Below are positions 54,102 to 58,183 of a DNA stretch of 64,000 nt, piece after piece (position 1 is the stretch's first letter; each line of letters begins with the position of its first letter). The position numbers and the translations under genes were made by a program. The DNA lies in NCBI GenBank assembly GCA_951406725.2, contig OX597814.1:96906001-96970000 (forward strand), read 5' to 3'. Source of the DNA: Octopus vulgaris (Eukaryota). Under the pieces are notes generated by a model, which saw nothing but the letters and a program-made list of their open reading frames with translations, was not told where the DNA came from and searched no databases.

Positions 54102-55123
54102 ATTTGTGTATATATATATAAAATTTGACGCTGCTTACCAAAAACCATCACATATATATATATGTGTGTGTGATGGCTTTTGGTAAGCAGCATCAAATTT
54201 TACAATTCTGTAAATGATAATAATAATACTTTATAAGCGATCACCATGTAATGACTAAAGAAAATAGTCTAATAATAATAATAATAATATATATATATGT
54301 TTTTAACAATAATTGGCAGAAGTTACAGAGTGACTCAAGGAATGAGAGTTTCATGCATTAGCACAACCAAACATTAATAAAACACATATATACACTCATG
54401 TTTTGAGTTCTATTTTGCCTGTTTGAATCACAAGCTAAGTAAAATCGCGGCCATCTGTGCATTCAGGCATGCCCTCTACGCCCCTCTCTTAGTTGAGAGG
54501 TTCCTAGTTTTACAGGCCTGTTGGATGTTGTTGCCATGTAAAAGCACCTATGCCAGTGTCACATAAATGTGTCAATACCAGTGCCTCATAAAAGAAACTA
54601 TGCCAGTGTCGGTGCTATGTTAAAGCCACCCGGTACACTTCGTAAAGAGGTTGGTGTTAGAAAAACCATCCAGCTGTCAAAATCATGCCAAAACAGACAA
54701 AATGAAACCCAGGCAGCTCTCCAGATAACCAGCTTCTGTCAAACCATCCAGCCTATACCAGCATGGAGAACAGATGTTAAATGATCATGATGATGATATA
54801 TATATATATATCATCATCATCATCATCATCGTTTAACGTCCGCATCATTGTTTAACATCTGTTTTCCATGCTGGCATGGGCTGGACGGTTGGGGTCTGGG
54901 AACCCAGGAAGTTGCACCAGGCTCCAGTCTGATATGGCAATGTTTCTACAGCTAGCTTCCCTTCCTAATGCCAACCACTCTGAGAGTGTAGTGGGTGCTT
55001 TTTACATGCCACCAACACAGGAGCTATAGGGGATTGGCAACAACCACGATTGGTTGGTGCTTTTTACGTACCACCAGCGCAGGGGACAGTCAAGGTGGCA
55101 TATATATATATATATATATATAC

Positions 55124-55505
55124 AGGTGCAGGCATGGCTGTGTGGTAAGAAGCTTGCTTCCTAACTACATAGTTCTGGGTTCATTCCTACTGCATGGCAC
55201 CTTGGGCAAGTGTCTTCTACTATAGCCTCAGGCTGGCTAAAGCCTCCTGCATGGATTTGGTAGCTGGAAATTGAAAGAAACCCATTGTATATATATATAT
55301 GAGTGTGTGTGTATGTATTTGTGAGTCTGTGTTTGTCCCCCCCCCCACTCCATGACTGCTTGACAACTGGTGGTGGTGTGTTTTCATCCCCAAAATTTAG
55401 TGGTTCAGCAAAAGAGACTGGTAGAATAAGTACTAAGCTTAAAAAGATAAGCGTTAGGGTCAAATTTTTGTCTTAAACCCTTCAAGGTGATGCTACAGTC
55501 AAATA
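55124..55505 (+). mobile_element. SINE family A, tail truncated at the GC island
   Basis: ggtgcaggcatggctgtgtggtaagaagcttgc head, family A body. Confidence 0.82.
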
Positions 55506-55849
55506 ACCAATCGGCCGGTTCAGGGGCGGCGCATCCGTGCCCGTCCCTTCCGGTCGCGACGATACGGTCGGCCTTCCACATTGGTCGCAGCGCAAATATT
55601 AGACTGAGACCAACGCGTACGGGCCATCGCAGCAGCCGCCACGCCTTCCGCGCACGGATCCTAGGTGTGCGGCGGCTTCACGCCCTTCGATTTGAGTGGT
55701 TGGCGTTAGGAAGGGCATCCAGCCATAGAAACACTGCCAGATCAGACTGGGCCTGATGCAGCCTTCTGGCTTCACAGACCCCAGTTGAACCATCCAACCC
55801 ATGCTAGCATGGAAAACGGATGCTAAATGATGATGATGATGATGATGAT

Positions 55850-56060
55850 AGTTAATCCAAACATGAAAGCACAAAAAAAAAACAACAACGCGAGGACGTG
55901 TAACAAATATAGTATTATTGTACACTCAGGAAAGAAGGAGGGTTTAACGTTTCGAGTGGAGCTCTTCATCGGAAACATAGGAGAAGGAAAGGTCCAGAGA
56001 AGGGAAGACAGAAGAAAAAAATCGCCGACAGTACACACGCGGTCACATTTTGAATGACCG
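55850..56060 (-). mobile_element. Small Penelope-like repeat carrying a hammerhead-like motif (relative at 1-160, plus strand)
   Basis: Minus strand gtttccgatgaagagctccactcgaaacgttaaac followed by tccttctttcctgag...taatactatatttgtta, similar to positions 25-130. Confidence 0.5.
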
Positions 56061-56304
56061 GATATATATATATATATATAACACTATATAAAGCAGACTA
56101 TCAGATGTTGTTATACACAGCTAGTCACAATGTTATTCAATTTTGTTGCAGCTTTCAGATTATGCCACACTATTGGCCAGGCAGGCAGGCCAACATTTCT
56201 CTTGATCAGAATGATAGTCCATCATGTGTTTTGTTCACAATGCTCCACTGATCTGAAACCACTAGATCCTGTATGTATATATATATATTTATATATATGC
56301 CAAT

Positions 56305-56636
56305 GCATGGCACCTTGGTTAAGTGTCTTCTACTATAGCTTTAGACCAACCAAAGTCCTGTGACTGGATTTGGTAGATGGAAACTGAAAGAAGCCCAATG
56401 TATATATAAATATATATGTGTGTTTTTGTGTTTATGTTTTTCCCCACCACTGCTTGACAACAGGTGTTGATGTGTTTATGTCCTCATAACCTAGTAGGTC
56501 AGCAAAAGAAACTGATAGCATATGTACCAGGCTTTAAAAACACACAAAAAATAAAGTACTGGAATTAATTCATTTGACTAAAACTTCTTCAAGGGGGTGC
56601 CCCAGCATGGCTGAAGTCCAATGATGGAAACAAGTG
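56305..56636 (+). mobile_element. SINE family A fragment
   Basis: ggcaccttggttaagtgtcttctactatagc ... ccagcatggctgaagtcc. Confidence 0.78.
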
Positions 56637-58183
56637 AGAGATAAATTACAAAAAGATATATGCTGAAGAAGTTACCAAAATAACAACAAGATGGGGTTTG
56701 TTTGTCTTTAAAATTATCAGATTGACTCACAGGGAAGTGGAAAGTATTGTTAAGATGTTTCTGAAAGTGTCCTTCAGAATATTGTGCCAAGGTGAAGAAA
56801 GGCTGAAAAAAGAAAGGAAGAGAGAGAAAAAAAAATTAAAGTGCAATATTGCCATCCTAACAAAAGAAGCAATGTGAAATTAATAATGATGGTCATGTGT
56901 GTGTTTGCGTGTATAACATGTACATATATAACTGGCATTCTCTCAGTTACAACAATGAGGCTTCCAGTTGATCTAATCAAAGGAACAGCCTGCTCATGAA
57001 ATTAATGTGCAAGTGGCTGAGCATTCCACAGACACATGTGCCCTTAACATAGTTCTTGGGGTGATTCAGTGGGACACAGAATACATGTACTAATTTTTGC
57101 CAGCTGAGTGAACTAGAGCAACAAGAAATAAAGTGTCTTGCTCAAGGATATAGTGCGTTGCCAGGAATTGAACTCACAACCTTATGAGCCAAATACCCGA
57201 ACCACTAAGCCATGCGCCTTCACTCATATATATATATGTGTGTGTGTATACATAAATGTCAAACAATGAGAATGAGTGTTCACTGGTGAATAAAAATTAT
57301 TTGTGTATTAAGGCTACTATTGGTTTCATGTTAAGAAAACTATTTTAATATCTTAACAATTTTTCAAGCTGATCCCATGGAGAATGGTGTTCCTACATTT
57401 TGGATGAAAACACCAAAATGGAAACAGACATTTTTTTAACATAAAACCAGTGGTAGCATTAATACACAAATAAAGAAATACATATATATGTATATGTATA
57501 TAATATATATATACAAATTTATTTGTCTTATGACTGCTAGTAAGATGAAACAACCAAGTCATTTTCAAACTTTTTCTTAAAAATTTAATTGAGAACATTA
57601 TTATGTATATATATATGTGTGTGTGTGTGTATACATGCACATGTGTATACATATATATGTGTGTGTATGTGTGTATATATATACATATATATAATATATA
57701 TAAATTAGAAAAAAACCACTATTATGCAATTCAAACAATGATAGACATAAACCAAATCACAAATAGAAAATAAAATATATTTTAAAACATATTACTAGAT
57801 CACAAAAAGTACAAAAATGAATAAACAATTTATAATAAGTAATAATATATATATATAATGGCTACTTCTGATGAGTGCAGGGTTACATAATCAGACTTAC
57901 ATCTAGTGCAAAACCAGTTGGTAAGATCAGTCATAATGGATATATAATACTGTACTCTTCGATTAAATATATACATACATACATATTTAAATATATATAT
58001 GAATTGATCCTAGGACTTACTTTTAAAGCAAGATAGAATAAGTACCAGGTTTTAAAATGCAAATACTAGGATTAATTCATTCAGCAAAAAAAAAACCTTC
58101 GAGGTGATGCCCTAACAGAGCTACAATCCAAAGGCTCAAACAAGCAAAAAATAAAAGATAAATGTGTATGTACATGTATCTTC

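What the first reader, a model, noticed from the sequence alone, without database searches (positions are those of the whole stretch)
55511..55692. GC-rich, CpG-rich island that folds into a nested multi-branch RNA and is fused to a LINE-type tail
Seen: 120 of 180 bases in 55511-55690 are G/C (67%) in a roughly 30% GC, CpG-poor window. Mutually nested helices are visible: aggggcg 55522-28 with cgccctt 55681-87; gcccgt 55539-44 with acgggc 55619-24; ttggtcgcag 55581-90 with ctgagaccaa 55604-13 (9 of 10); agccgcc-acgcct 55634-46 with aggtgt-gc-ggcggct 55663-77, closed by a tccg-cgca-cgga tip. An alternative pairing, atccgtgc 55533-40 with gcacggat 55652-59, also exists. The island runs directly into the RTE-type tail (gagtggttggcgttaggaaggg...(atg)n), replacing the subrepeats other copies carry there, and has no tRNA A/B box that I can see. 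Inference: a young retrocopy or SINE whose head comes from a structured non-tRNA RNA (rRNA expansion segment or spacer, ribozyme, or unknown ncRNA). I could not identify it.
Basis: partly seen in the sequence, partly recalled or inferred. Interest (0 to 1): 0.75.

Follow-up and report, generated by a model that had tools for sequence, protein, structure and literature searches.

The report
18S rRNA scrap on LINE tail
The GC-rich island is a decaying 183-base piece of the animal's own 18S ribosomal RNA gene joined to the tail of a jumping gene, likely a one-off by-product of that element's copying enzyme and not a new RNA or a new SINE family.

Summary
The island (55511-55693) is nt 293-475 of the host's 18S rRNA, in the expanded V2 region: 93% identical to the tandem 45S array. 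Eight of 13 differences are CpG-type decay; the other five are older rDNA states shared with other dispersed copies. It is joined, same orientation and with 0-1 nt homology, to the last 135 nt plus (ATG)7 of an APE-RT LINE. The junction occurs once in 2.8 Gb; no A/B box: not a SINE. The process recurs: 14 of 45 dispersed 18S pieces have a sense retroelement directly 3', 1 antisense; a 28S replicate points the same way but is not significant (5 vs 1 of 26). No TSD was found, so single-event origin is inferred. Known kind (U6/LINE, 28S/L1 chimeras). This scan noted 18S-SINE and 18S-L2 chimeras in other genomes and 5.8S chimeras in this one.

The parts
55121..55510 (+). Older tRNA-headed SINE copy (left flank; its 3' end is cut or decayed where the 18S piece begins). 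Not of the same age as the fusion.
   Evidence: Head 87.6% identical to the best and 82% to the median of 23 other copies; annotated in sense next to the island; tRNA-like head judged by eye and recall
55511..55693 (+). Fragment of 18S rRNA, nt 293-475 of a 2,641-nt 18S, inside the expanded V2 region
   Evidence: 92.9% identical to the C20 45S array; Rfam RF01960 on the parent, 988 bits, with 5.8S and 28S in the same unit; length; two published cephalopod V2 primer candidates resemble 55583-55616 (PMC8074623, passages)
55694..55826 (+). 5'-truncated 3' UTR end of an APE-RT LINE with a PHD-like insert (RTE-like by recalled C-terminal motifs; clade not tested by a tree)
   Evidence: 98-99% identical to many copies, 961 candidates; copy L035/L130 carries ORF2 upstream with RVT_1 at 67 bits and weak Exo_endo_phos_2 and PHD hits; window tail differs from it at 2 sites, both CpG
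55827..55849 (+). (ATG)7AT microsatellite 3' end of the LINE
   Evidence: Read directly; same end in the other tail copies
55850..56048 (.). Separate common repeat abutting the microsatellite; it may have displaced the original right flank
   Evidence: Three other copies (L051, L058, L117) begin at the same base next to an (AT)n run

Best explanation
The feature is a single, decaying copy of 18S rRNA nt 293-475 joined in the same orientation to the 3' end of a LINE, likely made in one retrotransposition event when the LINE reverse transcriptase jumped from its own RNA to 18S rRNA. Shown: identity of both parts, same orientation, blunt junction (0-1 nt homology), single copy, CpG-type decay, no private non-CpG change in either part, and a genome-wide excess of rRNA pieces with a sense retroelement on their 3' side. 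Inferred: the enzyme primed at the (ATG)n end, copied about 155 nt of LINE RNA, switched to 18S RNA at the U-run that ends the V2 expansion (nt 475), copied 183 nt and stopped; the copy was then methylated and has no function of its own. The high GC and the stems are inherited from the octopus-type V2 expansion.
For: Parent is 18S. Tail is a LINE 3' end. Junction unique with up to 2 mismatches in 21 nt. Ages agree: all 5 non-CpG differences of the island recur in older dispersed rDNA copies, and the tail differs from an ORF-bearing copy at 2 CpG sites only; CpG decay 8 of 35 against 2 of 4, Fisher p 0.27. Orientation bias: 14 of 45 dispersed 18S pieces have a sense retroelement within 25 nt of their 3' end, 1 antisense, 1 in the mirror position; background 9.9% sense and 7.3% antisense; without the window's copy and the 4 loci that supplied seeds, 9 of 40 against 1 (p 0.021). 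Four pieces start within 8 nt of the mature 18S 5' end beside non-rDNA (L062, L117, L118, L120), as expected of RNA templates. L119 holds a pre-rRNA piece inside ORF2 of the same LINE family, in sense. Precedent: U6 chimeras with RTE-like and L2 LINEs, often with small or no TSD (PMC4476161, passages); 28S/L1 chimeras, 83% sense (PMC13174262, passages).
Against: No target-site duplication: longest word shared by the two flanks is 5 nt; the family rarely shows a clear one and a second repeat sits on the right flank, so the test is inconclusive and single-event origin is not shown. No empty allele was seen. The 28S replicate alone is not significant (5 sense, 1 antisense of 26; p 0.22) and 2 of its 23 visible 5' sides had an antisense element. 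30 of 45 18S pieces have no retroelement of my library directly 3', so other routes make rDNA scraps here. Sequence alone cannot separate template switching from RNA ligation.
Confidence: 0.55

Rival explanations
1. Same product, other join: an 18S breakdown fragment ending in a U-run with a 2',3'-cyclic phosphate was ligated (RtcB-like) to a 5'-OH LINE RNA fragment, and the fused RNA was then retrotransposed.
For: Blunt junction after GAUUU; 3' ends of 7 of 18 other pieces found with the island fall in nt 461-478, simulated p 0.006-0.018 (post hoc); RtcB joins U6 to L1 RNA (PMC6789731, abstract and outline).
Against: Several other fusions sit inside an element with short homologies at the joints (L102, L110, L119) or before a full-length SINE head, which is easier to explain by enzyme jumps; no chimeric RNA data here.
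Confidence: 0.2
2. Two separate events: an rDNA scrap was pasted at DNA level (break repair), and a 5'-truncated LINE copy later landed at its edge, or the reverse.
For: The family is dense (about 15 long tail matches in this window); about 10% of random points have a sense element directly downstream; no TSD; most dispersed pieces have no retroelement partner.
Against: No 18S sequence resumes after the (ATG)n; both parts look equally young; chance adjacency predicts equal orientations, against 14 to 1.
Confidence: 0.19
3. Founder or member of an 18S-headed SINE family.
For: rRNA-derived SINE heads exist (SINE28, MeloSINE; PMC5786205 and PMC7245038, passages). An 89-nt contig with only 2 differences from the window's variant stands at depth 225 in run X5 of another species label, unexplained.
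Against: Junction found once; the window's variant pattern matches only itself and one array-edge copy at 2 mismatches; no A/B box; other fusions have different breakpoints and partners.
Confidence: 0.03
4. Assembly chimera or contamination.
For: Both parts are repeats; no laid record bridges the right junction with 31 letters on both sides.
Against: The island carries 8 private CpG-type changes; a contig of run X2 (another sample and study) crosses the left junction with 81 and 172 letters and carries the island's variants; a contig of run X1 (possibly the assembly's source) crosses the right junction with 115 and 22 letters at depth 30.
Confidence: 0.03

Closest known systems
[quoted passage not shown]
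   Same: Internal rRNA fragment of 50-482 nt fused 5' of a truncated LINE, mostly in sense, with a recurrent breakpoint; ascribed to template switching or RNA ligation.
   Different: Here the RNA is 18S (the term 18S has 0 occurrences in that paper's main text), the LINE is RTE-like with an (ATG)n end, the host is a cephalopod, and no TSD is seen.
U6 chimeras with L2, RTE-like LINEs and SINEs in platypus, opossum and Anolis (PMC4476161; passages read)
   Same: 5'-truncated cellular RNA upstream of a short LINE or SINE 3' piece; microsatellite-ended LINEs; small or absent TSD.
   Different: U6 is a small Pol III RNA joined at its natural 3' end; here an internal slice of a Pol I rRNA.
Bipartite and tripartite chimeric retrogenes of Magnaporthe (PMC2104539; abstract read)
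   Same: Abundant RNA fused to LINE or SINE parts, preferred switch sites, double switches; compare L101, L105, L119.
   Different: Those carry direct repeats and an unknown RNA (WEIRD).
SINE28 and MeloSINE (rRNA-derived SINEs; PMC5786205, PMC7245038, PMC10946416; passages read)
   Same: rRNA-derived sequence on a LINE-derived tail.
   Different: Those are many copies of one uniform structure; this junction is single.

Membership tests
18S rRNA (RF01960) derived sequence | Colinear match to an 18S gene in a 45S unit | tested here: met
   92.9% over 183 nt to nt 293-475; parent scores 988 bits; 5.8S and 28S in the same unit
Chimeric retrocopy (cellular RNA + LINE 3' end) | Cellular RNA copy 5', LINE 3' end with native terminus 3', same orientation, direct fusion | tested here: met
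Chimeric retrocopy (cellular RNA + LINE 3' end) | One target-site duplication around both parts | tested here: inconclusive
   None found; the family seldom shows a clear one; right flank taken by another repeat
Chimeric retrocopy (cellular RNA + LINE 3' end) | Both parts inserted at one time (empty allele or ortholog) | tested here: inconclusive
   Divergences agree; no empty site seen in 7 runs laid, most of which do not cover the flank
SINE family (SINE28-like, rRNA head) | Many copies with one head-tail structure | tested here: not met
   1 match in the genome with up to 2 mismatches; control pattern also 1
SINE family (SINE28-like, rRNA head) | Internal Pol III promoter | tested here: not met
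   No A or B box by recalled consensus in 55511-55850
Self-cleaving ribozyme head (HDV-like, hammerhead) | Match to a ribozyme covariance model | tested here: not met
   No such hit among 31 matches at E up to 10 in 54500-56700
Self-cleaving ribozyme head (HDV-like, hammerhead) | Cleavage in vitro | not testable with these tools
   Bench assay
RTE-clade LINE (source of the tail) | APE and RT in ORF2, microsatellite 3' end | tested here: met
   RVT_1 67.3 bits; Exo_endo_phos_2 26.3 bits, just under its 27.4 cut-off; (ATG)n end
RTE-clade LINE (source of the tail) | RT groups with RTE in a phylogeny | not tested

The most novel reading that the evidence does not exclude
Octopus 18S rRNA has a preferred break or enzyme landing site at the U-rich end of its V2 expansion (nt 461-478), and retroelement RNAs are joined there again and again, so the genome holds a fossil map of an undescribed cut in cephalopod small-subunit rRNA.
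Probability: 0.12. Interest if true: 0.55.

Novelty: new member of a known kind. Interest (0 to 1): 0.25.

Why it matters
By itself it is an ordinary by-product. It extends rRNA/LINE chimeras to 18S and to an RTE-like LINE in a mollusc, which my three searches on the subject did not find in print (for 'SINE18' gave one unrelated paper; subscription journals and Repbase are not covered). As a set, the fusions show the raw material from which rRNA-headed SINEs arise and keep older states of the fast-evolving V2 region. Dispersed V2 copies could also mislead 18S V2 metabarcoding of cephalopods.

Tried and rejected
Rfam scan of the window alone found nothing useful in the island because the slice is mostly expansion sequence; the own-genome search solved it. 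Ribozyme, unknown ncRNA and SINE readings rejected. TSD search negative. The first repeat library had a seed with an antisense second element and unmasked microsatellites; it was rebuilt, and only one search is used. Spacer control: 0 of 10 visible 3' sides had a retroelement (11 loci), but several of these loci were really 28S pieces and two are duplicates, so it is too weak to count. Sequencing runs: no RNA holder listed; X2's RNA label is a guess; raw-read runs X21 and X22 were read to about 3% and laid 0 and 2 reads, no test; X5, X7 and X10 do not cover the left flank, which proves nothing. Look-up of earlier findings by sequence returned nothing. No covariation test was run: the variants at hand are pseudogenes. 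No supplementary files were opened; those of PMC13174262 may list small-subunit chimeras.

Full report
Observation. The composition is as described: 120 of 180 bases G/C, 27 CpG, in a 32.8% GC, CpG-poor window where no other 180-nt stretch exceeds 100. The helix strands are at the stated places. The fold is only modestly better than shuffles (z -2.36, 3 of 200), and Rfam found nothing in the island on its own.

Identity of the island. A search of the own genome scored 40 of 53 candidates; the best lie in a tandem array on C20 with about 18-kb spacing at 92-93% identity. Their flanks are 18S rRNA: Rfam RF01960 scores 988 bits on L010, and a 20-kb stretch of the array holds 18S, 5.8S and 28S. 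The island is nt 293-475 of a 2,641-nt, 64% GC 18S, inside an expanded V2 region. Two primer candidates in a cephalopod 18S V2 paper resemble the island's middle (PMC8074623, passages), which fits a cephalopod host. Of 13 differences from the array, 8 are CpG-type transitions; the other 5 recur in older dispersed rDNA copies among the 24 compared, so they are earlier rDNA states. The island is a slice of a larger RNA, not a domain.

Identity of the tail. 55694-55828 matches a young family at 97-99% (40 scored of 961 candidates). The 29 other copies viewed do not carry the island and are cut at varied 5' points. One copy continues upstream into an ORF2 with RT, a weak endonuclease hit and a PHD-like insert; I call it RTE-like from recalled motifs, without a tree. 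The window's tail differs from that copy at two CpG sites only.

The junction. rDNA continues TGGTGAC after GATTT and the LINE has ..CTCGCG before GAGTGG, so the join has 0-1 nt of homology. A 21-nt junction pattern with up to 2 mismatches matches only the window. No A or B box was found. No TSD was found; the right flank is another repeat that begins at the same base beside a microsatellite in three other copies, and the left flank is an older SINE. A contig of run X2 crosses the left junction (81 and 172 letters, 1 difference); a contig of run X1, perhaps the source sample, crosses the right one with 115 and 22 letters, short of the tool's 31-letter rule.

Is it a pattern? From three 18S queries I examined 56 loci outside the intact units and dropped 11 (7 with an end beyond the fetched DNA, 3 rearranged, 1 duplicate). 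Of 45, 14 have a sense SINE or LINE within 25 nt of the 3' end, 1 an antisense one, and 1 the mirror arrangement; random points give 9.9% and 7.3%. The window's copy and four loci that supplied library seeds are among the 14; without them it is 9 of 40 against 1 (p 0.021). A 28S query (28 loci, 26 with the 3' side in view) gave 5 against 1, not significant alone; pooled, 14 of 66 against 2, p 0.004. The spacer control was too weak. Some pieces start at the mature 18S 5' end, and L119 has pre-rRNA inside ORF2 of the same LINE family. The 3' ends of 7 of 18 other pieces found with the island lie in nt 461-478; a simulation that allows for the search bias gives p 0.006-0.018, a post hoc result, and smaller clusters near the query end appear with the other queries too.

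Mechanism. Best reading: one LINE-driven event with a template jump from LINE RNA to 18S rRNA (0.55). RNA ligation before copying gives the same product (0.2; PMC6789731, abstract and outline). Two separate insertions cannot be excluded without an empty allele (0.19). A SINE family or an artefact is unlikely (0.03 each).

Comparison. It works like the 28S/L1 chimeras of human (PMC13174262, passages), the U6 chimeras with L2, RTE-like LINEs and SINEs (PMC4476161, passages) and the Magnaporthe chimeras (PMC2104539, abstract). It fails the SINE test of many uniform copies (PMC5786205 and PMC7245038, passages; PMC10946416, passages). Searches found no paper on 18S/LINE chimeras in molluscs; coverage is limited to open papers. 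Earlier notes of this scan, unchecked by me, report 18S-SINE and 18S-L2 chimeras in other genomes and many 5.8S and U6 chimeras in this one; my reading was written down before I saw them.

Verdict. Real, explained, a new member of a known kind; interest 0.25. The possible break or landing site at the end of V2 is the only lead with higher potential.

Noticed in passing
L131, L132, L134, L139, L160, L161, L162, L169 (28S pieces): Eight dispersed 28S pieces stop within about 15 bases of one place and run into non-rDNA, two of them (L132, L139) into the same sequence. From recall this is the R2 retrotransposon target site, so these may be R2 5' ends.
   Followed up: no
L022, L023, L117 (18S) and L155 (28S); Four independent rRNA pieces join at nearly the same point, the start of the roughly 60-nt SINE 3' tail: a preferred switch site on the retroelement side.
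   Followed up: partly
L119, L101, L105, L065, L102, L110; rRNA pieces that replace 10-50 nt inside a SINE or inside LINE ORF2, all in sense, some with short homologies at the joints: candidates for double template switches.
   Followed up: partly
window 55596-55684; runs X5 and X7: An 89-nt contig with only 2 differences from the window's variant (the array differs at 7 sites there) stands at depth 225 in X5 and 44 in X7. It may be a minor rDNA variant, an ortholog or a small family in the other species; unexplained.
   Followed up: partly
G000 contigs C1, C5, C11, C16, C28, C29, C33: Long, often near-identical rDNA copies lie outside the C20 array on at least seven contigs (orphons, or misplaced array pieces).
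   Followed up: no
L072-L073: The 18S is 2,641 nt and the 28S about 4,890 nt, far above the Rfam models (1,831 and 3,401).
   Followed up: no
window 54743-54889: Two LINE tails lie tail to tail around (AT)n/(ATG)n and form a long hairpin that gives sub-threshold miRNA hits.
   Followed up: no
L025, L026: Two 18S pieces on different contigs share the same 5' flank, so one such insertion was duplicated with its surroundings; L025 runs on into a 21-nt minisatellite.
   Followed up: no
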